64,000 nucleotides of DNA, taken from positions 1-64,000 of the IMG/VR virus record IMGVR_UViG_3300039210_000318, one strand, 5' to 3'. The notes under the pieces were generated by a model that made no database searches, had not been told where the DNA came from, and saw only the letters and a program-made list of their open reading frames with translations. A program made the translations under genes and the position numbers. Positions 4,900 to 51,486 of this stretch are shown here, piece by piece. How positions within the stretch are numbered: the first letter of the stretch is position 1; each line of letters begins with the position of its first letter. This DNA comes from a virus.

Positions 4900-7800
4900 G
4901 TGGACTCCGCAACGAACGAACTGCTGAATATCCTGATCCTGGCCGAGGACGGCGCCAGCGCCGTGCTGGATGGCGTCTCCGGCCGGGTACTGGGTCTGAA
5001 GGCCAGCCTCATGGAGGCCGTCGTCCAGTCCGACCTGATGGCCGCCTCGCAATTGAAGCTCGGCACGGCCATGGAGCGGATGGGTATCAACCTCGGCTCC
5101 TGGAGCCGGGAGGCCAATACCGCGGCGACGGACATGGCCACCATGGACGGCGTGGCCCTGGCGAGCACGACGGCGGTCCTGGGCCTTGCCGCCGGCGTCC
5201 TGGCCGCTGGCGTGGCTATGGGAATGAGCATGACGGCTGCCGCGCAGTTCGATCAGCAAATGACCGTCGTCGCAAACAACACCAACATGACCAACGCCCA
5301 GATGCAGCAGATGCACGACACCGTGCTGCGCCTGGGAGCGGATAGCGGCGCCTCCCTGGATAGCCTTTCCCAGGGGTACATGCACATCACCAACTTCGGC
5401 TACTCGGCAGCCGACGCGACGCTCATCCTGACCGCCGCCATGCACAGCGCCGTCTCTACCGGCGCCGACGTGGCACAGACGGCCAACGTCCTCGCCAACG
5501 TGATGCACGAATTCAACGTGCCCGCCATCGCCGCCGCCCAGACCATGGACATGATCCATACCGCCGCCGCCATGGGCAATATGACGCTGCAGCAGTTGAC
5601 CGACGCCTTCGGCCGTACCGCCGCGGCGGCCGCGGCCGTCGGCGCGCCGTTTGACCAGACGCTTGCCATGTTTACGATGATGACGCGCCACGGCTTCGAC
5701 GCCGCGCAGGCAACCACCCAGGTGGCCGACGCCATCCTGCACATCATCAAGCCCAGCGCCGGGGCGACCAAGGAACTCGAAGCGCTGTCCAATCAGACCG
5801 GCATTAACCTCGTCGCGGACTTCAGCCAGGCGGGGTTGCAGGCCAAGGGCTTCTCCGGCATCATCACCGACGTGGCCGCGGCGACCCATGGCAATGTCAA
5901 TGCTCTGGCCGCGCTGCTCAACGTGGCCCCCCCGACCACGGCTGAGTTGAACAATATGACCCAGGCGGCCAACGGCAACGCCGCCGCCCTGGCTGCCATC
6001 GTGCCGAACCAGCGCGGCCTCTACGCCATGATGCTCGCCACCGGCAACGGCGCCAAAGACTACGTCGACATCCTGCACGCTGTTGATGGCTCCATGCAGG
6101 GCGCCGGGGTGACGAACACCAGCTACGAGCGCAGCCTGACCAACGTCGGCCAGCAAATGTCGATCCTCGGTGGGAGCACCAAGTCCATCGAAATCTCCTT
6201 CGGGGAGATATTCCTGCCGCTCATCGCCGGGCTGGCTACCGGCCTGGCCGACGTTGCCAACGGCATCGAGCACGTGGTCGTGCCCGCCTTCTCGCACCTG
6301 TCCCAGGTCACCCGCGGTGTCACCGACGACATAGGAGCGATGCTGGGCAAAATAGGTGAGTTGAACGGCGGTGGCGGCGGCATCGCGGCGAACATCGCGG
6401 CGAACCTGCCGATGGTTGGTAACATCTTTGCCGCCGCCGGCACGGTACGCGACCTCCTGTCCCCCCCCGGTAGCACCGACGCCGCGGCGAAGGCCCACGC
6501 CGACTCGACCGCCGCTGCCATCAAGGCGCTGGTCGGTCCGAGTGGCGACGCCACCCTGGCGAGCGGAGCCGCTACCGCCGCCGAACAATCCAAAGCCGAC
6601 GCCAACCAGAAGGCCATCAATAACCTCGGCGTGGCCGAACTGAATATCAGCGTAAAGGACGTCAAGGCCCAATTTGACCCGACCATCAAAGACCTGCAAG
6701 GGCAACTTTCCGGCGAGCAGCAATCAACCACGGCCGCCGACGCCGCCGACAAAGGGCGCCAGGACGCGGTCAGGTCCGATTACCAGGCTCGCATTGCCCC
6801 GCTGCAAAAGACGCTTGACCTGCAAACCGCCAGTACCCAGCAGGCCGACGCCCTGGACAAAATCACCAAGGACGGCATCAATACCACCTACAACGCCCAG
6901 ATAGACCCGCTCAAGCGCCAACTGGACCTGCTGAACCAGCAGCACGCAACCGCCGGCGAGATAGCCACCGTCGAGGAAGACGGCATCCATGCCACCTACG
7001 ACGGCCAGATACAGAGCCTCCAGACCCAGATCGGGTTGCTCTCGAAGCGCCACCAGTATGCCCAGGAAACGCTAGCCGCCGAGAACCAGATCAAGGATGC
7101 CCAACTCCAACAGGCCTTGTTGGCAGCCGAAGGCGACCCGGTGAAGAAGGCGGCGCTGGCCGGCCACCTGGCCACGCTGAACATCGAGCAGCAAAAGGCC
7201 CAACTGCAGAAGGACATAGACACCCTCACGGCAAAGGATGGCGCCAGCCACTACGGCGGTACCCGCCTGACCAAGTACGGCTACTCCCCGCACAACGGTC
7301 CGCAGGCCCCCACCGCAGACGCCGCCGCGGTCAACGCCCTGCAATTGCAGATTGACCGGGACAAGCTGGCCGCGCTGAACCTGGAAGATCCCAACGCCGT
7401 CGGCGCCGCGACTTCTGCCCTCACCCTGCAGAAGGCCACCGAAGGGGTGCAAGGGCTGACCACGGCGATTGCCAACGGCAAGGACGCTCTGGCGGCTATC
7501 CCGTTGCAGCAGCAGTTGGACGGGCTGCTCAAGCAAGAGAAGGACTTGCTCACCCCTATCGAAGCGCAAAAGACCGCCGACCAGGCCCACTATGACCTCC
7601 TCAAGAGCCAGCTTGGGCCCGAGATCGACATCCTCAAGAACAAGGAAACCGACGCCCTGGCCCCGTTGGATGCGGCCATCAAGAAGCGCGATGCCGAACT
7701 TGCCGTCATGAAGGCCGACATAGAGCCGCAGATCAAGAAGCTCCAGACCGATGAAGCGGCTCGCATAGCGGACCTCCAGCATGCCATAGACCAGCGTAAC

Positions 7801-25983: not shown

Positions 25984-26118
25984 TCCTGGCCTCCTTACCG
26001 CTCGCGCCGCCCCCGGTAGCCATACCGGGCGGCAGCGCGCGCCGGTAGCATTAGTATACCGTACCGCTATGGTATGCTCCGAGAAAGCGGGCTAGCCGGT
26101 TGGGCTAGCCCGCCTGGG

Positions 26119-26391
26119 CTACGCTGCGGTAGAGGTCGCACCTGGCCGGCGCCGGATGGGGTTTCCCTCGGCCGCGCGCCGCCTGGCATAGTCGATCTTC
26201 CAGCAGCGGGGGGAGCAGTAGCGGCGGTGCCGGCCAAGCTCCTCCATAATCTCCGTGCCGCACACGACACAGTTAGTTGGCTGCTTGGCGCGTGGTACCG
26301 CGCGCAGCACGTTGCCCGCCATGGCCCGGTCGGACAATGAGGGCGGCGGCGGCGGCGCGGGCAGCGCCGCCGAGGCAGAACGAACAGGCAT
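26119..26391 (-). CDS. Small Zn-finger protein
   Basis: CVVCG...RRYCSPRC. Confidence 0.5.
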   Translation of the reverse strand: MPVRSASAALPAPPPPPSLSDRAMAGNVLRAVPRAKQPTNCVVCGTEIMEELGRHRRYCSPRCWKIDYARRRAAEGNPIRRRPGATSTAA

Positions 26392-26612
26392 AGCCGGCTC
26401 CTTTTCCTGGGTAGCTTCACCCCTCGCGCCGGACTCGCCCCGTCGCGTCGGGATACTGGTACGGTACAGTATCCGCACCTGCAATATCGTACCATCAATG
26501 CTCCCTTCCCCCTCTACCGCGCTGGTATATGCCGTTACGTTACGGTATGCTCAGGACAGCGCGGGGTATGAGGTTGCGCGCGCAGCCGTCCCGCGCGGAA
26601 AGGAAGGTACCC

Positions 26613-27014
26613 ATGACCTTCGCAGAGGCATTGGCTATGGCGCGGCGCCGGGAAGGCTTAAGCCAGTTAGCCCTGGGGGCGCACGCCGGCGTGGCGGCGT
26701 CCCACCTCAACCGACTGGAGCACGGCTACCGCACCGCACCCGGGCCCGCCTTCGTCGCTGCCCTGGTCGGCGTGCTCGGAGACGAGTATGCGCCGCTGCT
26801 CTACTGGACAGCCGGCCTGCTGCCCCCCGCCTGGCGCCGCTTACACCCCGGCGACCCGACCCTCTCGGCGGTCGCCACCTTCCTCTGCGTGCCGCTACGC
26901 GATGCGGGCGAGTTGCAAGACTTCCGGAGCGTCGTAGAAGCCATGGTCCTGCATTGGGGCAGCGCTCCCGCGGTACCCGTGGAGCAACTCGGCCAGGCGG
27001 CGCTGCCGCTATGA
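26613..27014 (+). CDS. XRE-family HTH regulator (Cro/CI-like)
   Basis: FAEAL..ARRREGLSQ..LG..AGV..SHLNRLEHG.R; at the divergent transcription boundary. Confidence 0.85.
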   Translation: MTFAEALAMARRREGLSQLALGAHAGVAASHLNRLEHGYRTAPGPAFVAALVGVLGDEYAPLLYWTAGLLPPAWRRLHPGDPTLSAVATFLCVPLRDAGELQDFRSVVEAMVLHWGSAPAVPVEQLGQAALPL

Positions 27015-28051
27015 GCGCAGCCGACCAAGATAGCCGACACGGCAGCCGATTGGAGCATAGTCTCGCCCTGCGCCGACTCGGCCAGGGTATGGACGCCCTC
27101 TCCCTCTCTACCGCACCGGCGCGCCAACTCCGGCTCCTGGCCGTGCTGATGCGCGAGACCTGGGCCTGGAATACCGACGACGTCGGCCTCTCCCTCACCG
27201 AGATTGCGGAGCGCACCGCGCTGGGACGGTCGCATATCACCCGGGCCCTGCGCGCCTTAGAGGCGGCCGGCGTGTGTCGGCGCACGGCCGAGGGCAACAC
27301 CAGAGGGCAGAGCCGGCCACGCAATCGCTACACCATGCACCCGCCGGAAGACTGGCTCCCCCCGTTTCTACCCCAGGGTACGAACCGTACCCTGGGGCCA
27401 GGGTACGAACCGGCCACTACCCCAGGGTACGAACCGTACCCAGCCCCAGGGTACGGCAGCACGCCTGACCCAGGGTACGGTTCGTACCCTACACCCATGG
27501 TTAACCATGACACCTTAACCATGAGAGAGAACCATGGGGCCGACCCCGGCGCAGCCCCGGCTGCGCGGCCTCCCCTTTCCGCGCAATTGCGTTTGACGGA
27601 GCACCGGGCGGCGGGAGCAGCCGTCGACCAGGCCCAGGCCCTTGCCCTGGCCCACTGGCTGGCCGAGGAAGTGCAGCACGGCAGCGAGCCGCTGGACGAT
27701 GCTGCGCTGCTGCAGGAAGCCGGGCATGCCGCCGTGCTCATCGCCCGCTTCCACGGCTACCTCGGCGTCGTCGCGCATTGCCAGGAACGCCTCAAGGAAC
27801 GCCGCCGCCGGCCGCTGCGGTTGGCTCACGTCGTTGCGGATCTTGCTCGCGCCGAGCGGCGCGTGGCCCCGGCTCTAGAAAGGGCAACCACCCCCCATGC
27901 AAAATCTCAACAGCCAGTGGCGCCAGATTGGTACGCTGGTACCGCAGCAGACTATGCCCGCGACGTTGAGGAGCGCGAAGCCTACCGCGAACGGCAGCGC
28001 GTCGCCTTCGACGCCAGCATGGCCGACCAGGACGCCCGCGCCACCGGCTGA
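27011..28051 (+). CDS. Replication initiator (lambda O-like, N-terminal winged HTH)
   Basis: LMRETWAWN....LSLTEIAERT.L.RSHI.RALR.L; internal iteron cluster; followed by a DnaC-like gene. Confidence 0.8.
   Translation: MSAADQDSRHGSRLEHSLALRRLGQGMDALSLSTAPARQLRLLAVLMRETWAWNTDDVGLSLTEIAERTALGRSHITRALRALEAAGVCRRTAEGNTRGQSRPRNRYTMHPPEDWLPPFLPQGTNRTLGPGYEPATTPGYEPYPAPGYGSTPDPGYGSYPTPMVNHDTLTMRENHGADPGAAPAARPPLSAQLRLTEHRAAGAAVDQAQALALAHWLAEEVQHGSEPLDDAALLQEAGHAAVLIARFHGYLGVVAHCQERLKERRRRPLRLAHVVADLARAERRVAPALERATTPHAKSQQPVAPDWYAGTAADYARDVEEREAYRERQRVAFDASMADQDARATG
27371..27490 (+). repeat. Iteron cluster / probable replication origin
   Basis: Five direct CCAGGGTACG copies plus inverted CGTACCC copies; palindrome CCCCAGGGTACG-AAC-CGTACCCTGGGG. 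Confidence 0.8.
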
Positions 28052-28790
28052 ACGCTGCTCCGTCTGCCACGAGCCGCTCCAGCCGCGGCAGCACGGCTGG
28101 CTGCGCCGGGGCGGCGCGCCGGGGGAGGAAGGGTTCGGCCTGGCCGTGCCCTGCCCGGCGTGCAGCCCGCCGGTACGCCGGCAGCAGGCATGGGAGCGCG
28201 GCGCCGCGCTGCGCTCCCACTTCCCCCTGCCACCCGAGGCCGTGGCAGCGGGCTGGACCTTCGACTCCTTCCCGAGCACCAACACGACGTCACCCGTCGT
28301 GCGGCGGGTGATTGCCTTCGTCAAGGAGGAGTCCGACTATCGTAATTGCTACGTCCACGGCGACTACGGCGTCGGCAAGAGCGGGCTGGGCATCGCCGCC
28401 GTGCGCTGGGCATGGGAGCAGCGCCGACCGGCGTTGTACACGACGCTGCCGGCGCTGCTCTCCCTCATCCGGCACACCTACGACGAAGGCGGCAGTCTTA
28501 CCGAGGAGCACATTCTGCATAGCCTGGAAGAATGCGACCTGCTGGTCGTGGACGATCTGGGTCCGGCGCGCGGCGGGGGAGCCGCGCGTCCGCTCTCGGC
28601 CTGGACGGAGGAGAAGGTCTTCCAACTGACCAACAGCCGCATGCTCTCCGGCCGGCGCACCCTCTACACCAGCAACCACCGCCCGGAAGCCCTCCGGCCG
28701 CCGACCATCCTGGGCGACCGTATCGTGGAGCGCATCGAGTACCGCTGCCTCACACTCGAGCTCGCCGGGCCGAATTGGCGGCGGCAGTAG
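27897..28790 (+). CDS. DnaC/IstB-like AAA+ helicase loader
   Basis: Walker A GDYGVGKS, Walker B LLVVDDLG, TLYTSN, GDRIVERI, L.GPNWR; start uncertain. Confidence 0.9.
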   Translation: MQNLNSQWRQIGTLVPQQTMPATLRSAKPTANGSASPSTPAWPTRTPAPPAERCSVCHEPLQPRQHGWLRRGGAPGEEGFGLAVPCPACSPPVRRQQAWERGAALRSHFPLPPEAVAAGWTFDSFPSTNTTSPVVRRVIAFVKEESDYRNCYVHGDYGVGKSGLGIAAVRWAWEQRRPALYTTLPALLSLIRHTYDEGGSLTEEHILHSLEECDLLVVDDLGPARGGGAARPLSAWTEEKVFQLTNSRMLSGRRTLYTSNHRPEALRPPTILGDRIVERIEYRCLTLELAGPNWRRQ

Positions 28791-28796
28791 GACCAC

Positions 28797-28825
28797 TTTG
28801 ATATACCGTAACGCTACGGTATGCT
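28797..28825 (+). promoter_or_regulatory. Promoter/operator of the Cas7-like gene
   Basis: TTTGAT-N17-TATGCT overlapping ATACCG-TAACGCTA-CGGTAT, the genome-wide palindrome. Confidence 0.65.
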
Positions 28826-28879
28826 AGCAGCGCCGGGAATTGCCCCGGCGCCAACAATGCCAAAGAAAGGCAACCCCCC

Positions 28880-29584
28880 ATGGCCCTCCCAGACGGTTTC
28901 CCAGCGGTCCCCCTGACCCCGGAGGAGGAGGAAGACGTCGACCTCTACGAGCGGTACGACGTCATGCTCCACATCCGCGAGCGTATCACCGGGGGGGTCC
29001 CGGCGAACCCGGAACTGCTCTCCGGTTTCCTGCGCGGTAAAGGCATCAGCAGCGAGCAGGCCCAGGCCGAACTGGCAGCCAAGATGGCGTCCGATATGGA
29101 CGCAACCTTGACGGAGGAAATCGAAAGCAAGACCTCCGTCTTCTACCGCTCCGGCGGCACCGGTGGCCCGCTATGCACCAAGGAGTTTGCCATCAAGGCA
29201 TGCTTGAAAGAAGCCGGCGTAGCGTCCGGTTACATGAGCGCCGGGGGAATCCGGCAGCCCATGCAGCATGGGGTGTTCATCAAGCCTCTGCACATCTTGC
29301 TGCGACGCGAGGACGGCAGTTTCTACCTGAAGGCTGATGGCACCGACGAGAAGGTGACCCACACCATGGGACCGCGCGGCCCGGTGAGTGGCATCAGCCG
29401 CTTCGAATATGTGCGCGCGCCGTACCTGCGCTTCGAGATCTGGGTCCGCGCGTCCTACAAGCAGAAGCCGACCGAGCAGCAGCTACACATCATGCTGCGC
29501 ACGGCCAAAGAAATTGGCCTGGGAGCCAACCGGACCATGAGCGAGGGGAAGTTTGACCTCCTCCACTTCGCGGCGCTCGCATGA
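28880..29584 (+). CDS. Stand-alone Cas7/RAMP-like protein
   Basis: 234 aa; beta1 YDVMLHIRERITGGVP, FYR..G.P.....IKACLKEA helix, thumb-like hairpin ending SRFEYV, C-terminal G-rich loop IGLGANRTMSEGKF. Confidence 0.75.
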   Translation: MALPDGFPAVPLTPEEEEDVDLYERYDVMLHIRERITGGVPANPELLSGFLRGKGISSEQAQAELAAKMASDMDATLTEEIESKTSVFYRSGGTGGPLCTKEFAIKACLKEAGVASGYMSAGGIRQPMQHGVFIKPLHILLRREDGSFYLKADGTDEKVTHTMGPRGPVSGISRFEYVRAPYLRFEIWVRASYKQKPTEQQLHIMLRTAKEIGLGANRTMSEGKFDLLHFAALA

Positions 29585-31070
29585 GCGCCGCCACCACCCG
29601 CGCCAGCGCGACTAACCTGACCAAACCACCCCGTTCCCAGGCGACTATCCCGTCCAAGTCCTGGCGCACCGGAGCGACTAGCCATCCCTCGCCCTTCCCC
29701 GGCGACCATCCGTTGCATGCCTTACCCTTCCCCGCCAGCGCGACGAGCCAGTCCATTCCACAACCAATCGACCATCCGTTCCACGACCTTGCCATCCTAT
29801 GCGACGTGCCGAGCCTATCCGAATCATTCCCGCGCGACGAACCCAACCATGCCTTCCCGGGCCCGCGCAACGAACCTGGCCGAACCCTCCCTGGCCGCCC
29901 CTGCGCGACTACCCGACCCGGACCCTTCCAATCCGGTGTGACAATCCAGACCTTTGCATTCCCCGGCGACTATCCGTTCCAGACCTTGCTCATCCGTCCC
30001 GCGCGACAATGCCAGCCTATCCTCGACGCCGAGACGAGCCGATCCTATCCCATGCTCATCATTCCCTGCCGGGGCGACTATCCCTCCCTACCCACCTCAC
30101 GCCGGTGCGACTTTCCACGTCATGCCCAATCAGGACTCAGCGACTTTCCGTCCCAAGACAGCCCGACCCCCGGCGACAACCCTAAACCAGCCGGGCCAAT
30201 CCGGGGCGACAACCCAGACCTTGCCCACCCTCGCCGTCGTGACATGCCTACCCTGCCAGGCCCACGCGACATTCCAACCCTTTCCTTATCCGGCCAGCGC
30301 GACACACCTAGCCACCCCCGACCGCCGCGACGATCCGGCCCTTGCCACACCGGCGCGGAGCGACATGCCACGCCTGTAGCACGCCAGTCCATGGCGACTA
30401 TGCCGGCCACTCCCGCCCGATACTTTCCTGGGCGACAGTCCACCCTACGCCTCTCCCTGCCCTGCCCTGGAGACGGCCCAAGCCAGCGCCACCCTCCCCA
30501 TGCCATCGGGACAAGCCAAACCCCCCCTTGCCTGGACAGGGCGACTTCCCAGCCCATCCCCACGCAGACCCAGGCGACGATCCCGACCAACCCCATACCC
30601 GGCGACAAGCCTCATCCATCCGGACCACTCCTTGGCGACTTCCCATTCCACCCCCTCCCAGGCCAACCCGGTGCGACAAGCCCGCCCGGTCTAATCCTCT
30701 CCCCGGCGACAAGCCGCCTCGATCCAAGCCTCCTCGCTACGCACCGGCGCGACAATCCTTATCCCACCTGCCCAACGCGACGCGACTGTCCATCTCACTC
30801 CAACCCCGCTCCCCCCTACGCGACGAGCCAAGCTAGCACCATCCAAGCCACGGCGACTACCCATCCCCATACGAGACACCCCAAGCCCGGCCCGCGCGAC
30901 GAGCCTATGCGAACCCATCCCTGGCGACGAACCCAGCCATGCCTTCCCTACCCTGTCCACGGCGACGAACCCGCACCCGCCTTCCCCAGCCATCGTGACG
31001 ATCCCGTCCAAGCCTTCCCTGACCGGACCTCTGTGACAACCCGCGCCAAGCCACGCACCCCTACCCTGGG
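29585..31070 (+). repeat. Non-CRISPR hierarchical repeat array (GCGAC + n x NNNCC + NNN), candidate guide-RNA array
   Basis: ~43 units, nearly all 28/33/38/43 nt, parsed by hand; begins right at the stop codon of the Cas7-like gene. Confidence 0.85.
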
Positions 31071-31102
31071 GGCCATCAATAGCAAAAGGAAAGGAACCAC
31101 CA

Positions 31103-32155
31103 ATGGGAGACAAGACCTCCATCGCCTGGACAGCCTCCGTAGACGCCAGCGGCGCGACCACGCCGGGCTCAACCTGGAACCCGCTGCGCGGCACGGTGGG
31201 CAATTGGACGTGCGTGCGCTGGTCTGCCGGCTGCGAGCACTGTTACGCCGAGAGCCTTAACAAGCGCTTCGGTGGGCCCGGCTACACCACCGGCGCCGAT
31301 ACCCCGCGCCTGGACGAGCGCATCCTGGAGCAGCCGCTACGCTGGCGGCTGCCGCGCAAGGTCTTCGTCGGCAGCATGACCGACCTGTTTGAGCAGCGCA
31401 TCCCCGACGAGTGGATCGCCCGAGTGTGGGCGGTCATGGCGATGGCGTCCGGTCACACCTTCCAGGTGCTGACCAAACGCCCCGAGCGCATGTGCCTCCT
31501 GCTCGGCAGCAGCACGTTCCAAGCCCTCGTCACCCGGGCCCTGCACGAGCACCGCCACCCCAAGGGGTGGTACCTGGAGGGGGTGGGCGCCTGGCCGCTG
31601 ACCAATGTCTGGTGCGGCACCAGCATCGAGCAGGACCGTTGGACCGGCCGCGCCGACGTCCTTCTGCAGACCCCGGCGGCGGTACGGTTCCTGTCCCTGG
31701 AGCCATTGCTAGAGCCGTTGCCCTCGCTGCGGCTGGGGGGCCTGGACCACCTGGACCGCGAGTACCGCAGCCAGATTGGCAAGGGCATGTTCAATAGCGA
31801 TCAGGTCGATAGCCTGCGCCGACCGGTCATCGATTGGGTGATAGTAGGCGGCGAGTCCGGACACGCCCCGGACTCCCGTTCTCTGGTAGAGGCCTGTGAT
31901 CACACGTTCGGCGTGGTCTTTGTCAACGGCGTGCAGCAAATCAGCATCGCCCCGCCGAAGGACTGCCTAATCTGCTACGGCACCGGTTGGCGTCCGAAGC
32001 CGTGGGCCGAGAAGGAGGCAAAGCGCCTGCGTCTCTTGACACACCTGGCCGATGGGGCGTTCTTTTTTAAGCAGTGGGGGGGACCGCGCAGCCATTCCGG
32101 CGGTCGCATGCTGGTCGGCCGGGAGTGGTTGGAGTTCCCTAAGGGGACGCTATGA
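31103..32155 (+). CDS. Gp37/Gp68 (DUF5131) radical-SAM-like phage protein
   Basis: TSIAWT...TWNP..G..C...SAGCEHCYA, FVGSMTDLF, FQVLTKRPERM, RFLSLEPLL, WVIVGGESG, FFFKQWG. Confidence 0.9.
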   Translation: MGDKTSIAWTASVDASGATTPGSTWNPLRGTVGNWTCVRWSAGCEHCYAESLNKRFGGPGYTTGADTPRLDERILEQPLRWRLPRKVFVGSMTDLFEQRIPDEWIARVWAVMAMASGHTFQVLTKRPERMCLLLGSSTFQALVTRALHEHRHPKGWYLEGVGAWPLTNVWCGTSIEQDRWTGRADVLLQTPAAVRFLSLEPLLEPLPSLRLGGLDHLDREYRSQIGKGMFNSDQVDSLRRPVIDWVIVGGESGHAPDSRSLVEACDHTFGVVFVNGVQQISIAPPKDCLICYGTGWRPKPWAEKEAKRLRLLTHLADGAFFFKQWGGPRSHSGGRMLVGREWLEFPKGTL

Positions 32156-32361
32156 AACGCGCGCGGGCTATTGACCACAACCCTGACCGCCTCCGCTGTG
32201 TCGTCTGCGGGGACAGCGCCGGGCTGGCCAGGCGTCAGGAAACCTTGGTCGGCATCGTCTGCGAGTGCTGTTTCGAGGGAGCGGACGGCGCTCCCTATTG
32301 GGCCAACTGGAAGATTTCGCTGACACCCGGCCAGCGCACGACGTTGAGGAGCATGCGATGA
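32152..32361 (+). CDS. Small Zn-finger protein
   Basis: CVVC...CECC; coupled start and stop. Confidence 0.45.
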   Translation: MKRARAIDHNPDRLRCVVCGDSAGLARRQETLVGIVCECCFEGADGAPYWANWKISLTPGQRTTLRSMR

Positions 32362-32801
32362 GAGCCATCAGCTTTAGCTGGACCAGTGCCGCCCTGGTCG
32401 CCGGCCACAAGACGGTGACCCGGCGCGTCTGGGACGAGCGGTACGCCATCGGTTTCCACCAGGGGGACATGGTAGAAGCGTTCGATCGACAGCCGCGCTA
32501 TGGCGGCACGTGCATCGCCCGCATCCGTGTCCAACGGCTGACCTACGAGGCCATGAGCGTCATGCCGGACTATGACTACGAGGGGGAGGGACACGCCTTC
32601 TACGACGCCCACCCGGAGTTTGCGCCCAAGCAAATCTCCGGGCAGCGCGTCCTGCCCGGCCAGTTCAGCCGCCTGTCCTTCGACTTCTGGCGGCGCAACG
32701 GCACGAGCATGTGGGTGCTGCGCTTCTCGCTGGAGGAGATCGAGACGGACCTGACGCCTGTGCTGCAACGCGCGGTAGAGCTACGCCGGCTACCGGCATG
32801 A
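32358..32801 (+). CDS. ASCH-domain protein
   Basis: ISF......LVAG.KTVTRR.W (GxKTxTxR motif). Confidence 0.75.
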   Translation: MRAISFSWTSAALVAGHKTVTRRVWDERYAIGFHQGDMVEAFDRQPRYGGTCIARIRVQRLTYEAMSVMPDYDYEGEGHAFYDAHPEFAPKQISGQRVLPGQFSRLSFDFWRRNGTSMWVLRFSLEEIETDLTPVLQRAVELRRLPA

Positions 32802-32848
32802 CGCCGTACTACTGCAACCCGGCCGGCGACGTGACGCTCTACCTGGGG
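32798..32848 (+). pseudogene. 17-codon N-terminal stub of a DNA methylase
   Basis: MTPYYCNPAGDVTLYLG resembles the start VKPYYENDDIGVRLFLG of the intact methylase downstream; ends at the LAGLIDADG stop. Confidence 0.5.
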
Positions 32849-33331
32849 CTACTCAATGCGCCGGCGAGTGTCGTTCAACAGGCGCAATCTACGCCAAAGT
32901 TCCAGACGCTCCTCCGTGATTTCCGGGGACAGGCGCGTACCACGCACCCCGACCCGGATCGTCCGTTGCTCGGCACGCGGCCGGTCCTTGGAAGCCCGAA
33001 GGGCCAAAGCGAGATCTGCCCGCTCTCCTTTGACGCGGAGATAGGGGCGGACGGCCGAGAGAAATTCCGCTGCCTTCAGGCAGGACACCCTCCACTCATA
33101 CATTGGACGCCAGTTCGCGGTTCCCCTTTTCCTCAACCGGAATTCGCCGGGCCACAAGGCGGCGAATATCTCTACGGCCGCGCTCTCTGTCTGCCCAACC
33201 TCAGCAGACTCACTGAAGGTGTAAGAGTTCGGCCACCTGATATTGGTAGCTTGCCGACGAATCGTCACCGACCCATCGGCATCAAAGACCCCTGCCAGAT
33301 AGGCCAGGGTCACCTGGTTCTTTTCATACAC
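32849..33331 (-). mobile_element. Free-standing LAGLIDADG homing endonuclease
   Basis: LAYLAGVFDADGSV motif; YEW.V....A..FL..V.PYL.VK; antisense to its neighbours. Confidence 0.85.
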
Positions 33332-33366
33332 GCCCGTCGTTCCTTCCTCTCACATTATACCGGGGT

Positions 33367-34068
33367 ATGGCGGGGTATATCGTGAAGCCTTATTACGAGA
33401 ACGACGACATCGGGGTACGACTGTTCCTCGGAGATGCGCGCAGCGTCCTGGCCGACCTGGCGCCGGTAGACGCCATCATCACCGACCCCCCCTGGCCCGG
33501 CGCCAAACCGACCGCCGAGTGGACGGACGATCCCGCCGGCCTCTTTACCGAGACCGCCGTCCACTTCCCCCGCCTCGTCGGCCCGGGTGGCCGGCTGATC
33601 GTGCAGCTTGGCAGCGGTACCGACCCCCGCATGCTCAACGGCATCCCGCCGAGCTTGCCCTTCGTGCGCGTCTGCTGGCTACGCTTCTCCGTGCCGCGCT
33701 ACCGGGGCACCCTCCTGGACGGCGCCGACGTCGCCTACGTCTACGGTGGCATGTGGCTCGGCGCGCCGGGGAAGCGCGTCATGCCGGGGGAGGCCAACGC
33801 CACCAGCAGCGATGCTGGCCGGCGGCGCCGCTACCTGATCCCCCACCCCTGCCCGCGCCGACTGGAGCACCTGGAATGGTTGGTGTACCACTTCACCAAG
33901 CCGGGCATGACGGTGCTCGATCCCTTCGCCGGCAGCGGGACCACCCTTGACGCCTGCCGCCGTCTCGGCCGGCCTTGCATCGGCGTGGATACCAGCGCCC
34001 CCTACCTCGACAGCATCATCGAGCGCATCGAGCGTCAACCGCTCCTGCCCCTGGATATGACGGGCTAG
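33367..34068 (+). CDS. DNA amino-methyltransferase (N4/N6, beta class)
   Basis: IITDPPW, HPCPR, VLDPFAGSGTT. Confidence 0.9.
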   Translation: MAGYIVKPYYENDDIGVRLFLGDARSVLADLAPVDAIITDPPWPGAKPTAEWTDDPAGLFTETAVHFPRLVGPGGRLIVQLGSGTDPRMLNGIPPSLPFVRVCWLRFSVPRYRGTLLDGADVAYVYGGMWLGAPGKRVMPGEANATSSDAGRRRRYLIPHPCPRRLEHLEWLVYHFTKPGMTVLDPFAGSGTTLDACRRLGRPCIGVDTSAPYLDSIIERIERQPLLPLDMTG

Positions 34069-34078
34069 TACCAACGGC

Positions 34079-34552
34079 ATGGGCCTGACATATACCGTTA
34101 CGCTACGGTATAGTATGGCAGCGGCGCTGGACGCCGCGACGAGGAGGAAGATGGAACTCACCGGGTATCACGGCCTGACGCAGAGCATATATCTTTGCGG
34201 ACCCTGGCGCGGGCGGGCCATGTACGTGTCCTTTGACCGCTCCCTGGCGCTGGCGGTCGCCAAGTACGGCGGCGTCTACGCCGTGCGCTACGAGGCATCC
34301 TGTCCGCTCGTCCTCGACACCCCGGCTCTGTTCCGGCACACCTGGGAGGCTTCCGGCGCGCCGTTCCCGCGCGTTTTCAGCACGCAGCGCCGACGCCTTG
34401 AAGACTACTGCCGCAAGCGGGGGTCAGACGCCATCGTCCTGCCCGCCTCGGCCTTCGGGGGGGAATATGGGTACGCCTGGGTGGCCGGGCTCTTCGGAGA
34501 GCCGCAAGCCATCCTGCTCGCACCGGAGCGGGCGGTGCTCACCCCATGCTGA
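34079..34552 (+). CDS. ADP-ribosyltransferase-like (ART-PolyVal-type) protein, putative
   Basis: YHG...MYVS.D..LA...A.YG.VY.V......PL....G.DAIV...E; true start probably ~34151, after the promoter palindrome. Confidence 0.45.
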   Translation: MGLTYTVTLRYSMAAALDAATRRKMELTGYHGLTQSIYLCGPWRGRAMYVSFDRSLALAVAKYGGVYAVRYEASCPLVLDTPALFRHTWEASGAPFPRVFSTQRRRLEDYCRKRGSDAIVLPASAFGGEYGYAWVAGLFGEPQAILLAPERAVLTPC

Positions 34553-51099: not shown

Positions 51100-51315
51100 C
51101 GCTTGCTCGCTCCTCTCGCCGGACGCTCCCTCGGTCTGGCGCTCGCTCCCTCCCCTCTCGCCGGACGCTCCCTCGCTCCCTCGGCTGGACGCTTGCTCGG
51201 TCGGCGCTCGCTCCCTCGGCTCTCCGCTCGCCGCTCGCTGGCTGCTCTCCGGTAGCTCCCTCGGCTCTCCGCTCGCCGGCTCGGCTCTCGGCTGGCTCGC
51301 TGCTCTCCGCTCGCT
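51100..51315 (+). repeat. Pyrimidine-rich low-complexity repeat (CTCGCT/CTCTCC/CTCGG units)
   Basis: Repeated ctctcgccggacgctccctcg and ctcggctctccgctcgcc; almost no A. Confidence 0.7.
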
Positions 51316-51486
51316 GTCTGGCGTCCCTTGGTCGCTGGCCAGCGCGGCGTAGGGCACGCGCCGGCCATCTCGCTCCGACCGAGGACGGCAGACGCGCCGC
51401 CCCGGCGCGCCGGAAGGAGGAGCACTTTATCGGCTCGTGCTCCTGACCGCCGTCCATGGCAACCTCCTCGGAAACCCTCCCAGAAT

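What the first reader, a model, noticed from the sequence alone, without database searches (positions are those of the whole stretch)
29608..31070. Array grammar: unit lengths quantised in steps of 5 nt, every unit different
Examples: 29608 GCGAC TAACC TGACC AAACC ACCCC GTTCC CAG (33); 29641 GCGAC TATCC CGTCC AAGTC CTGGC GCACC GGA (33); 29674 GCGAC TAGCC ATCCC TCGCC CTTCC CCG (28); 29702 GCGAC CATCC GTTGC ATGCC TTACC CTTCC CCGCC AGC (38). There are about 43 units of 4-7 pentamers, with only ~3 off by one base. Delimiter variants are GTGAC/GAGAC/TCGAC/GCAAC/GGGAC. Position 5 is almost always C, position 4 usually C, and positions 1-3 vary. The 8-nt NNN-GCGAC junction could be a processing handle. 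Preserved phase with unique variable triplets argues for information storage rather than slippage.
Basis: partly seen in the sequence, partly recalled or inferred. Interest (0 to 1): 0.9.

Follow-up and report, generated by a model that had tools for sequence, protein, structure and literature searches.

The report
Phage VIPR guide array, C-C type
The five-base-periodic array is real and is most likely the guide-RNA array of a VIPR system, a CRISPR-like phage system first described in 2026, sitting next to its small Cas7-like protein; this copy uses unusual fixed letters and very short, sharply delimited guides.

Summary
Window 29608-31070 (+) has 43 different units of GCGAC + (NNNCC)n + NNN. 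39 of 43 are 28, 33, 38 or 43 nt long.

It is not a new kind of system. The gene just upstream (28880-29584) folds as a lone Cas7-type RAMP. Its family matches the family of the Escherichia phage SUSP1 Vipr protein profile-to-profile (96.3%, E 2e-9).

A DNA pattern search alone found the same grammar in other viral contigs. In 14 of 35 fetched loci the array lies beside a homologue of this protein, always on the gene's strand.

This fits VIPR: a Vipr filament on pentamer-repeat guide RNAs whose variable letters specify DNA targets (bioRxiv 10.64898/2026.04.26.720920 and .720927).

This clade differs from the tested type II system in four ways:
- two fixed letters, not three;
- C-C, not G-G, on the gene's sense strand;
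- 4-7 pentamers per unit;
- a 5-nt GCGAC delimiter instead of a structured tail.

Not shown here: RNA strand, processing, decoding rule and targets. A local target search was null.

This scan has noted VIPR arrays many times on other DNA.

The parts
28798..28825 (+). Promoter-like site (TTGATA, 16 nt, TATGCT) just upstream of the Vipr-like gene. It is a possible start of a sense transcript covering the gene and the array.
   Evidence: one of 2 consensus matches in 26000-34500 (shuffles average 0.9). This is a consensus match only, not evidence of function.
28880..29584 (+). Vipr-like gene: a lone 234-aa Cas7-type RAMP. It has an RRM core, a long beta-hairpin at 154-179 (thumb-like) and a C-terminal glycine-rich loop, G213-L-G-A-N-R-T-M-S-E-G-K-F225.
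   Evidence: - No Pfam, PHROG, NCBIfam or PADLOC family.
- AF2 model, mean pLDDT 78.1, pTM 0.74.
- Foldseek PDB top hits are Cmr4, Csm3 and type VII Cas7, E 5e-7 to 4e-5.
- VIA-align Z 12.5 (6s6b_I) and 12.3 (9g9a_D).
- BFVD top hits include a phage protein named 'Cas system-associated RAMP superfamily protein', E 1e-11.
- hhalign of its family against the SUSP1 Vipr family: 96.3%, E 2e-9, 138 columns.
- 1756 representatives at E <= 0.001 in 1.84 billion proteins.
29585..29607 (+). Leader: a delimiter-less partial unit (four pentamer-like words ending in C, plus AGC) running from the stop codon of the Vipr-like gene to the first GCGAC.
   Evidence: Read directly.
29608..31070 (+). Array of 43 candidate guide units, each GCGAC + (NNNCC)4-7 + NNN. 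This is the putative vrRNA array.
   Evidence: No Rfam family at E <= 1. The sense RNA folds no better than shuffles: -32.1 against -33.3 kcal/mol per 150 nt.
29581..31260 (+). 559-codon open frame across the whole array. Its ATG overlaps the stop of the Vipr-like gene, and it runs into the next gene. Probably not a gene.
   Evidence: Listed.
- Stops by frame in the array are 0, 5 and 8.
- 488 of 20000 unit-order permutations give a stop-free frame.
- 6 of the 16 arrays examined have stops in all three sense frames, for example L032 with 6, 5 and 4.
- No Pfam or PHROG match.
31103..32155 (+). Downstream DUF5131 gene. Its ribosome-binding site lies 33 nt after the array. It is a neighbour and is not shown to be part of the system.
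   Evidence: - Pfam PF07505, E 1.3e-59.
- PADLOC PDC-M41B, E 7e-59.
- Not conserved next to the Vipr-like gene in the other loci.

Best explanation
The array is the guide-RNA (vrRNA) array of a VIPR system, and 28880-29584 is its Vipr protein.

Inferred mechanism, by analogy with the tested SUSP1 system:
1. The locus is transcribed on the + strand from upstream of the vipr-like gene.
2. The C-rich, weakly structured transcript is cut or bounded at the GCGAC words into RNAs of about 28-43 nt.
3. Vipr protomers polymerise along each RNA, one per pentamer. They grip the fixed C-C pair and present the variable letters.
4. The variable letters of the 4-7 pentamers, plus the last triplet, together specify a DNA target in a competing phage or other mobile element, which is then bound and silenced.

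The unit-length step of 5 nt is then the footprint of one protomer. This resembles the 6-nt steps of type III crRNAs (recalled, from no call).

Shown here:
- the grammar of the array;
- the RAMP fold of the neighbouring protein;
- its profile-level homology to the SUSP1 Vipr family;
- the conserved pairing and co-orientation of protein and array in other viral contigs;
- the rapid turnover of units between related phages.

Inferred only: the transcribed strand, the processing sites, one protomer per pentamer, how many of the three variable letters are read, and the targets.
For: **1. The protein.**
- AF2 model with pLDDT 78.
- Best structural matches are Cas7-type backbone subunits: Foldseek E 5e-7 for 6s6b_I, 112 PDB hits at E <= 0.001; VIA-align Z 12.5 and 12.3.
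- Profile-profile match of 143 relatives (A3) to 36 relatives of the SUSP1 ORF 28474-29061 (A4): 96.3%, E 2e-9, 138 columns.
- That SUSP1 ORF carries D177, W178, R179 and R138 at exactly the numbers given in the structure paper. It is flanked by YNNGG repeats on its own strand.

**2. Association found without using the protein.**
- A DNA pattern of two delimiters 33 nt apart gave 35 viral loci.
- An HMM of the family finds a Vipr-like ORF in 14 of these 35.
- In all 14, plus this genome, the C-rich periodic array abuts the gene on the same strand. It lies downstream in 8, upstream in 6 and on both sides in 1.

**3. Same grammar elsewhere.** L018 has 45 units, 39 of them 5n+3. Pooled junction logo from 166 junctions.

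**4. Hypervariable content on a fixed scaffold.**
- 43 of 43 units here are distinct.
- L024 and L033 have flanks about 80% identical, but only one shared unit was found among their in-register units.

**5. Sense transcription is the simplest reading.**
- There is no room for signals between the flanking + strand genes.
- A promoter-like site lies at 28798-28825.
- A 16-bp-stem terminator follows the L026 array on the sense strand.
- SUSP1 vrRNAs are also co-oriented with vipr.

**6. Published mechanism.** Read. It includes alternative NNNGG, YNNNG and NNNNG repeats and contiguous 'staggered' arrays.

**7. No self-match.** No match above shuffled controls in the phage's own 73-kb record, as the paper reports for its systems.
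Against: - No RNA evidence. No RNA run is listed for this DNA, so strand, ends and expression are untested.
- The canonical GGY/NN consensus is not met. On the gene's sense strand the fixed letters are C-C. On the other strand they read GGN, and the third letter shows no pyrimidine rule. In sense letters, position 3 is A 0.18, C 0.29, G 0.25, T 0.29.
- There is no structured 3' tail like the SUSP1 pseudoknot. Units have 4-7 pentamers against the published 9-16.
- No accessory (vap) gene is conserved among the 15 loci.
- A single-sequence comparison with the SUSP1 protein was not significant. The homology rests on profiles only.
- No target was found under any of five decoding rules in 0.41 Mb of local sequence.
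- The 14 loci are related phages, and L024 and L031 carry the same array. The 15 of 15 co-orientation is therefore not 15 independent events.
Confidence: 0.88

Rival explanations
1. Same system, opposite strand. The guides are transcribed antisense to the vipr-like gene as (NNNGG)n RNAs ending in GTCGC. That makes this the published 'NNNGG' variant with a minimal 5-nt 3' tail.
For: - The VIPR paper lists NNNGG among alternative repeats.
- In SUSP1 the fixed letters are G-G and the invariant part lies 3' of the repeats. Read antisense, each unit here would also end in an invariant word.
Against: - In 15 of 15 loci the C-rich strand is the gene's sense strand, whereas SUSP1 guides are co-oriented with vipr.
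- Here the array is wedged between two + strand genes, with 23 nt and 32 nt to spare.
- No antisense promoter-like site was found near 31070-31200.
- The strong terminator after the L026 array faces the sense direction.
- The two G-loop residues that read the guanines in SUSP1 Vipr (D177, W178) align with A216 and N217 here. A216 is invariant in 11 of 11 family members.
Confidence: 0.28
2. The array encodes a proline-rich, disordered 559-aa protein (29581-31260) translationally coupled to the upstream gene. The periodicity would be a by-product.
For: - One frame is stop-free across the whole array, and its ATG overlaps the upstream stop.
- Only 488 of 20000 unit-order permutations keep a frame open.
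Against: - A 5-nt period with units of 28, 33, 38 and 43 nt shifts the frame between units, so no protein repeat results.
- 6 of the 16 arrays examined have stops in all three sense frames: L032, L014, L042, L041, L026a and L022.
- The frame runs 158 nt into the DUF5131 gene.
- No family match.
Confidence: 0.03
3. A structural or decoy element with no guide function. Candidates: a C-rich RNA sponge or Rho-loading tract, i-motif or G-quadruplex-forming DNA, replication-origin iterons, or a slippage-made microsatellite.
For: - Strong C over G skew and weak predicted structure.
- Each unit has at least four C-C tracts.
- The array lies in the replication module, with O-like and DnaC-like genes upstream.
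Against: - Slippage gives near-identical units, but 43 of 43 differ.
- A sponge or origin does not explain the sharp 5n+3 lengths or the invariant GCGAC.
- It also does not explain the strict pairing with a Vipr-family RAMP in 14 other loci.
- A separate iteron-like 24-nt repeat already lies inside the O-like gene at 27368-27501.
Confidence: 0.04

Closest known systems
VIPR systems (Vipr protein + vrRNA). Reference: type II of Escherichia phage SUSP1. Papers: bioRxiv 10.64898/2026.04.26.720920 (Results, Discussion and four Methods sections read) and 10.64898/2026.04.26.720927 (abstract and two Results sections read).
   Same: - A lone small RAMP with a G-loop and a thumb-like hairpin, encoded by a phage.
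- Next to it, on the same strand, non-coding tandem pentamers with fixed and hypervariable positions.
- No CRISPR repeats and no other cas genes.
- Family-level homology to SUSP1 Vipr.
- No self-match.
   Different: | Feature | This array | SUSP1 |
|---|---|---|
| Fixed letters per pentamer | two | three |
| Fixed letters on the gene's sense strand | C-C | G-G |
| Pentamers per unit | 4-7 | 9-16 (paper), 12 seen |
| Unit boundary | invariant 5-nt GCGAC | about 35-nt pseudoknot tail |
| Number of units | 43 contiguous | 4 separate vrRNAs |

- No conserved accessory gene.
- G-loop residues D177 and W178 are replaced.
'Staggered' vrRNA arrays and NNNGG-type repeats of other VIPR types (same paper; Methods text and the legend of fig. 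S18 only).
   Same: Contiguous guides in which the end of one marks the start of the next, and a two-letter fixed core.
   Different: I could not see the figures or data tables, so I cannot say whether this GCGAC-delimited, sense-strand C-C clade is among them. By the main text, staggered arrays were not confirmed by RNA sequencing.
Non-canonical VIPR arrays found by a genomic language model (bioRxiv 10.64898/2026.10.21.760802; passages read).
   Same: 5-nt entropy period next to a Vipr-like fold. Fixed letters other than GGY occur (GAC, CAC, WGT, TGH).
   Different: The passages I read describe three fixed letters plus NN, repeated about 10 times. No C-C plus NNN type or GCGAC delimiter is mentioned in them.
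Type III CRISPR-Cas backbone (Csm3/Cmr4) with crRNA.
   Same: - Closest solved folds.
- A filament on a guide RNA, with a thumb that breaks pairing periodically.
- crRNA lengths stepped by the protomer footprint (recalled, from no call).
   Different: - No CRISPR repeat-spacer array.
- No Cas10, Cas5, Cas6 or Cas11 seen among the genes checked within about 3 kb.
- 5-nt rather than 6-nt period.
- Fixed letters inside the guide.

Membership tests
VIPR | Lone Vipr protein: a small single-RRM RAMP with G-loop and thumb, homologous to described Vipr proteins. | tested here: met
   - Fold.
- G-loop G-L-G-A-x-R-x-x-G-x-G-K-F.
- hhalign to the SUSP1 Vipr family: 96.3%, E 2e-9.
- The single-sequence comparison was not significant.
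VIPR | Adjacent non-coding tandem pentanucleotide repeats with conserved and hypervariable positions. | tested here: met
   203 pentamers: position 5 is C in 200, CC in 161, positions 1-3 free. Lag-5 z 9.4.
VIPR | Canonical GGY/NN (YNNGG) consensus on the vrRNA strand. | tested here: not met
   The sense strand reads NNNCC. The antisense strand reads GGNNN with no pyrimidine rule at the third letter. The paper allows 'a related consensus', including NNNGG.
VIPR | Conserved structured 3' tail capping each vrRNA (a pseudoknot in the SUSP1 clade). | tested here: not met
   Only a 5-nt GCGAC, extended weakly to GCGAC-D-A, separates units. Folding energy equals shuffles. No Rfam hit. The feature was described for type II and may not define all types.
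VIPR | Accessory vap gene next to vipr ('typically' two genes). | tested here: inconclusive
   No neighbour family apart from the Vipr-like gene is shared across the array-bearing loci. The only other clusters spanning 3 or 4 of them are overlapping or array-derived frames. The neighbours here are a DnaC-like loader and DUF5131.
VIPR | Viral or proviral context. | tested here: met
   The window is an IMG/VR virus record of 73 kb. Phage replication genes, DUF5131 and a LAGLIDADG ORF lie nearby.
VIPR | vrRNAs expressed and bound by Vipr. | not testable with these tools
   No RNA holder is listed for this DNA. The complex tool takes proteins only.
VIPR | Variable letters match DNA targets by a gapped rule (1-nt skip), with no self-target. 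| tested here: inconclusive
   Five rules were tested on 0.41 Mb, both strands. The best-site mismatch distributions equal those of shuffled triplets. No self-match was found. Large collections could not be searched with joined strings.
CRISPR-Cas type III | CRISPR array of direct repeats of about 25-40 nt with unrelated spacers, plus Cas10, Cas5 and Cas11 partners. | tested here: not met
   The only repeated word is 5 nt. No cas gene was found among the neighbours checked. Only the fold is shared.

The most novel reading that the evidence does not exclude
This clade runs a different version of the VIPR code. The guides would be sense-strand, tail-less RNAs of 28-43 nt, bounded by GCGAC. The protein would grip a C-C pair instead of G-G-Y, and all three remaining letters of each pentamer would be read. 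A 33-nt unit would then specify about 18 nt of contiguous, codon-phased target, with one protomer per pentamer setting the 5-nt length quantum. That would be a second, denser RNA-to-DNA recognition code in the same protein family, with 43 guides in one phage.
Probability: 0.35. Interest if true: 0.6.

Novelty: new member of a known kind. Interest (0 to 1): 0.4.

Why it matters
VIPR is a months-old class of RNA-guided DNA binders, and its experiments so far rest on type II systems of E. coli and Pseudomonas phages.

This locus and its about 14 relatives give a compact natural series in which the scaffold letters, guide length and guide boundary all differ from the tested system:
- two fixed letters;
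- C-C on the sense strand;
- 4-8 pentamers per guide;
- a 5-nt delimiter and no tail.

If the sense-strand reading holds, three things follow:
- The protein family can be retuned to other fixed letters.
- A filament of only 4-7 protomers would suffice.
- Unit length would be set by a protomer ruler.

All three are useful for understanding and engineering the code.

If the antisense reading holds, this is an ordinary NNNGG-type member.

Tried and rejected
**Coding reading.** The long ORF is open here but not in other arrays, so I rejected it as the main explanation.

**Known RNA families.** Rfam at E <= 1 gave only two chance miRNA matches outside the array.

**Tandem Repeats Finder.** It does not report the array. 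It found only a 15-nt CCCTG run at 30455-30469, because the units are too unlike.

**Protein families.** Pfam, PHROGs, NCBIfam and PADLOC gave no family for the 234-aa protein. Cas_Cas6_C was hit by 2 of 11 relatives, best E 0.0028. PDB by sequence gave nothing below E 0.2.

**Relatives by protein.**
- tblastn against 50,697 phage records: no match.
- The search for related loci in viral contigs and genome contigs: no confirmed relative.
- The word-indexed protein search gave only 2 homologues.
- The exhaustive profile search gave 1756.

**Target search.**
- Window units: 39 in-register units under rules NNN contiguous, NNx, xNN, NNN+1 skip and NNN+2 skip.
- All arrays: 196 units under NNN contiguous and NNx.
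- Database: the phage's own 73 kb plus 35 viral loci with arrays masked, 407,962 bases, both strands.
- Result: no excess over shuffled-triplet controls. The one perfect 16/16 hit was an unmasked piece of a related array.

**Codon-like signals in the triplets.**
- GC by position rises at position 3 in 9 of 12 arrays.
- Stop triplets were 20 observed against 38.8 expected (my sum rows, leaving out L031). Reverse-complement stop triplets were 16 against 22.4.
- I judged this too weak to use as evidence.

**Similar unit pairs inside the window array.** Pairs seen by eye did not stand out in the all-pairs comparison.

**Sequencing runs.** No RNA holder is listed. 4 DNA runs of one soil-metagenome study hold the stretch and may be its source.

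**Not used.** Complex prediction and the protein-atlas search.

**Literature limits.** Figs S16-S18 and data S3-S4 of the VIPR paper may already show this clade, its type and its strand. Print searches for prior description.
Full report
**What is there.**
Window 29608-31070 (+ strand) is a contiguous array of 43 units. Each unit is GCGAC (or a one-letter variant), then 4 to 7 pentamers of the form NNNCC, then three more letters.
- Unit lengths are 33 (20 units), 38 (9), 28 (7) and 43 (3), plus four off by one base: 27, 34, 37 and 39.
- So 39 of 43 lengths equal 5n+3 (binomial p about 3e-23).
- In the 203 pentamers of the in-register units, the last letter is C in 200 and the last two are CC in 161. 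The first three positions carry no fixed letter.
- All 43 units differ.
- Exact GCGAC occurs 35 times on the + strand of the array, and its complement never.
- Autocorrelation peaks at lags 5, 10, 23, 28, 33, 38 and 43. Lag 5 is 9.4 sd and lag 33 is 16.1 sd above shuffles, and no other tile of the window comes close.

**It is not a gene and not a known RNA family.**
- One frame is open across the whole array and starts at an ATG overlapping the stop of the upstream gene.
- Only 488 of 20000 permutations of unit order keep a frame open, so this is mildly unusual.
- But 6 of the 16 arrays of the same grammar in other contigs have stops in all three sense frames.
- A 5-nt period with 5n+3 units cannot encode a repeating protein.
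- Rfam has no match in the array.
- The sense RNA is predicted to be weakly structured and no more stable than shuffles.

**The neighbour is a lone Cas7-type RAMP.**
The 234-aa product of 28880-29584 has no Pfam, PHROG, NCBIfam or PADLOC family.
- An AlphaFold2 model from 11 relatives has mean pLDDT 78.
- It matches Cmr4, Csm3, type VII Cas7 and Cas7-11 domains: Foldseek E from 5e-7, VIA-align Z 12.5 and 12.3.
- Among viral models it matches a phage protein annotated as a RAMP.
- The C-terminus carries a glycine-rich loop, G-L-G-A-x-R-x-x-G-x-G-K-F, conserved in the family.
- The family is large: 1756 representatives at E <= 0.001 among 1.84 billion proteins.

**The pair is conserved.**
- A DNA pattern made only of two delimiters 33 nt apart, with two C-C positions each, found 35 viral loci.
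- An HMM of the protein family finds a homologue in 14 of these 35. Those 14 include the loci with clear arrays.
- In all 14, and in this genome, the C-rich periodic tract abuts the gene on the gene's own strand. It lies downstream in 8, upstream in 6 and on both sides in 1.
- L018 has 45 units, 39 of them 5n+3.
- These contigs are related to each other, and L024 and L031 carry the same array, so the 15 cases are not independent.
- No other gene family is shared across these loci.
- Between related phages the scaffold stays and the content changes. L024 and L033 have flanks about 80% identical, but the in-register unit comparison found only one shared unit.

**What it is.**
A literature search led to bioRxiv 10.64898/2026.04.26.720920. 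I read its Results, Discussion and Methods sections 18, 20, 24 and 27.
- VIPR systems are a lone ancestral RAMP (Vipr, about 20 kD) plus vrRNAs made of tandem pentamers (9-16 YNNGG) followed by a 3' tail.
- The variable letters pair with double-stranded DNA, skipping every third target base.
- The systems are mostly viral and are aimed at competing mobile elements.
- Seven types exist. Alternative repeats are NNNGG, YNNNG and NNNNG. Array forms include contiguous 'staggered' arrays.
- The companion structure paper (10.64898/2026.04.26.720927; abstract and two Results sections) shows one protomer per repeat. G1 is read by H17 and D177, G2 by R138 and W178, and Y3 by a pocket that includes R179.

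I tested membership directly.
- In the SUSP1 record (accession recalled, confirmed), ORF 28474-29061 is flanked on its own strand by YNNGG runs.
- Its relatives carry R138, D177, W178 and R179 at those numbers.
- A profile of 143 relatives of the window's protein matches a profile of 36 relatives of that ORF at 96.3% probability, E 2e-9, over 138 columns including the G-loop.
- A single-sequence comparison was not significant.

I therefore file the locus as a VIPR system.

**How this copy differs.**
1. Only two letters per pentamer are fixed.
2. On the strand of the gene they are C-C, whereas in SUSP1 the co-oriented strand reads G-G.
3. Units have 4-7 pentamers, not 9-16.
4. Units are bounded by an invariant 5-nt word, extended weakly to GCGAC-D-A-N-CC, not by a structured tail.
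5. There are 43 contiguous units.
6. D177 and W178 of SUSP1 Vipr align with A216 (invariant in 11 of 11 relatives) and N217, while R179 aligns with conserved R218.

**Which strand.**
This is open. I favour sense C-rich RNA, at about 0.6-0.7 within the VIPR reading, for these reasons:
- The array is packed between + strand genes with 23 and 32 nt to spare.
- A promoter-like site lies upstream of the gene.
- A strong sense-facing terminator follows the L026 array.
- Co-orientation is universal in the clade, as in SUSP1.
- The guanine-reading G-loop residues are replaced.

The antisense reading, (NNNGG)n followed by GTCGC, would match a published repeat variant and the 'invariant part at the 3' end' layout. 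No RNA run is available to decide.

**Targets.**
I built the decoded strings only inside scripts and searched 407,962 bases, both strands: the phage's own 73 kb plus the 35 first-pattern loci, with arrays masked.
- I tested five rules for the 39 in-register window units and two rules for 196 units of all arrays.
- The distributions of best-site mismatches equal those of shuffled triplets.
- This shows no self-targeting. It says nothing more, because the database is tiny.
- Weak codon-like signals in the triplets were not strong enough to use.

**Verdict.**
- The 'information storage' reading is right in kind, but by homology, not by demonstration.
- The system is a member of a class published in 2026 that this scan has already met often: 687 notes in at least 466 genomes hold the search words.
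- What remains of interest is the variant grammar and the possibility of a denser, C-C-anchored version of the code.
- The supplementary figures and tables of the VIPR paper, which I could not see, may already cover this clade.

Noticed in passing
window 27368-27501: About five copies of a 24-nt repeat (TRF consensus CCCCAGGGTACGAACCGTACCCTG) containing a GGTAC..GTACC palindrome. They lie inside the ORF whose product has a phage replication protein O N-terminal domain. This looks like origin iterons embedded in the initiator gene, as in lambda (the comparison is recalled).
   Followed up: no
window 29581-31260: One frame stays open through the whole array and is ATG-TGA coupled to the Vipr-like gene. 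Only 488 of 20000 unit-order permutations do this, yet other arrays of the clade lack an open frame. Translation through the C-rich, G-poor RNA might protect it from Rho-dependent termination so that the downstream gene is expressed. This is speculation.
   Followed up: partly
window 31103-32155: The DUF5131 gene right after the array matches the PADLOC candidate-defence models PDC-M41B and PDC-M30B (E 7e-59 and 2e-55). It also matches, weakly, the radical SAM mobile pair protein A model. It is not conserved beside the Vipr-like gene elsewhere.
   Followed up: partly
window 32849-33331 (- strand): A 160-aa ORF with a LAGLIDADG-like motif (LAGVFDADGSV), set antisense between + strand genes and just before a DNA methylase-like ORF at 33367-34068. 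It is probably a free-standing homing endonuclease (both the motif name and the methylase-like label are recalled, not tested).
   Followed up: no
L026 6017-6842 and 7470-8499: In this viral contig the Vipr-like gene (6830-7537) has C-C periodic arrays on both sides. These arrays are more degenerate (many units not 5n+3), and the second ends in a 16-bp-stem terminator.
   Followed up: partly
L024 and L033 arrays: Two related phages, with flanks about 80% identical, keep the array scaffold and the last delimiter plus ribosome-binding site. The in-register unit comparison found only one shared unit, nearly unchanged (25 of 27 variable letters). That unit may be under selection for a common target.
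   Followed up: partly
window 51100-51320: A degenerate C/T-rich tandem repeat region (periods 4, 20, 22, 38 and 66 reported by TRF). It lies just before the cassette array that other first-stage notes describe at about 51.7-61 kb.
   Followed up: no
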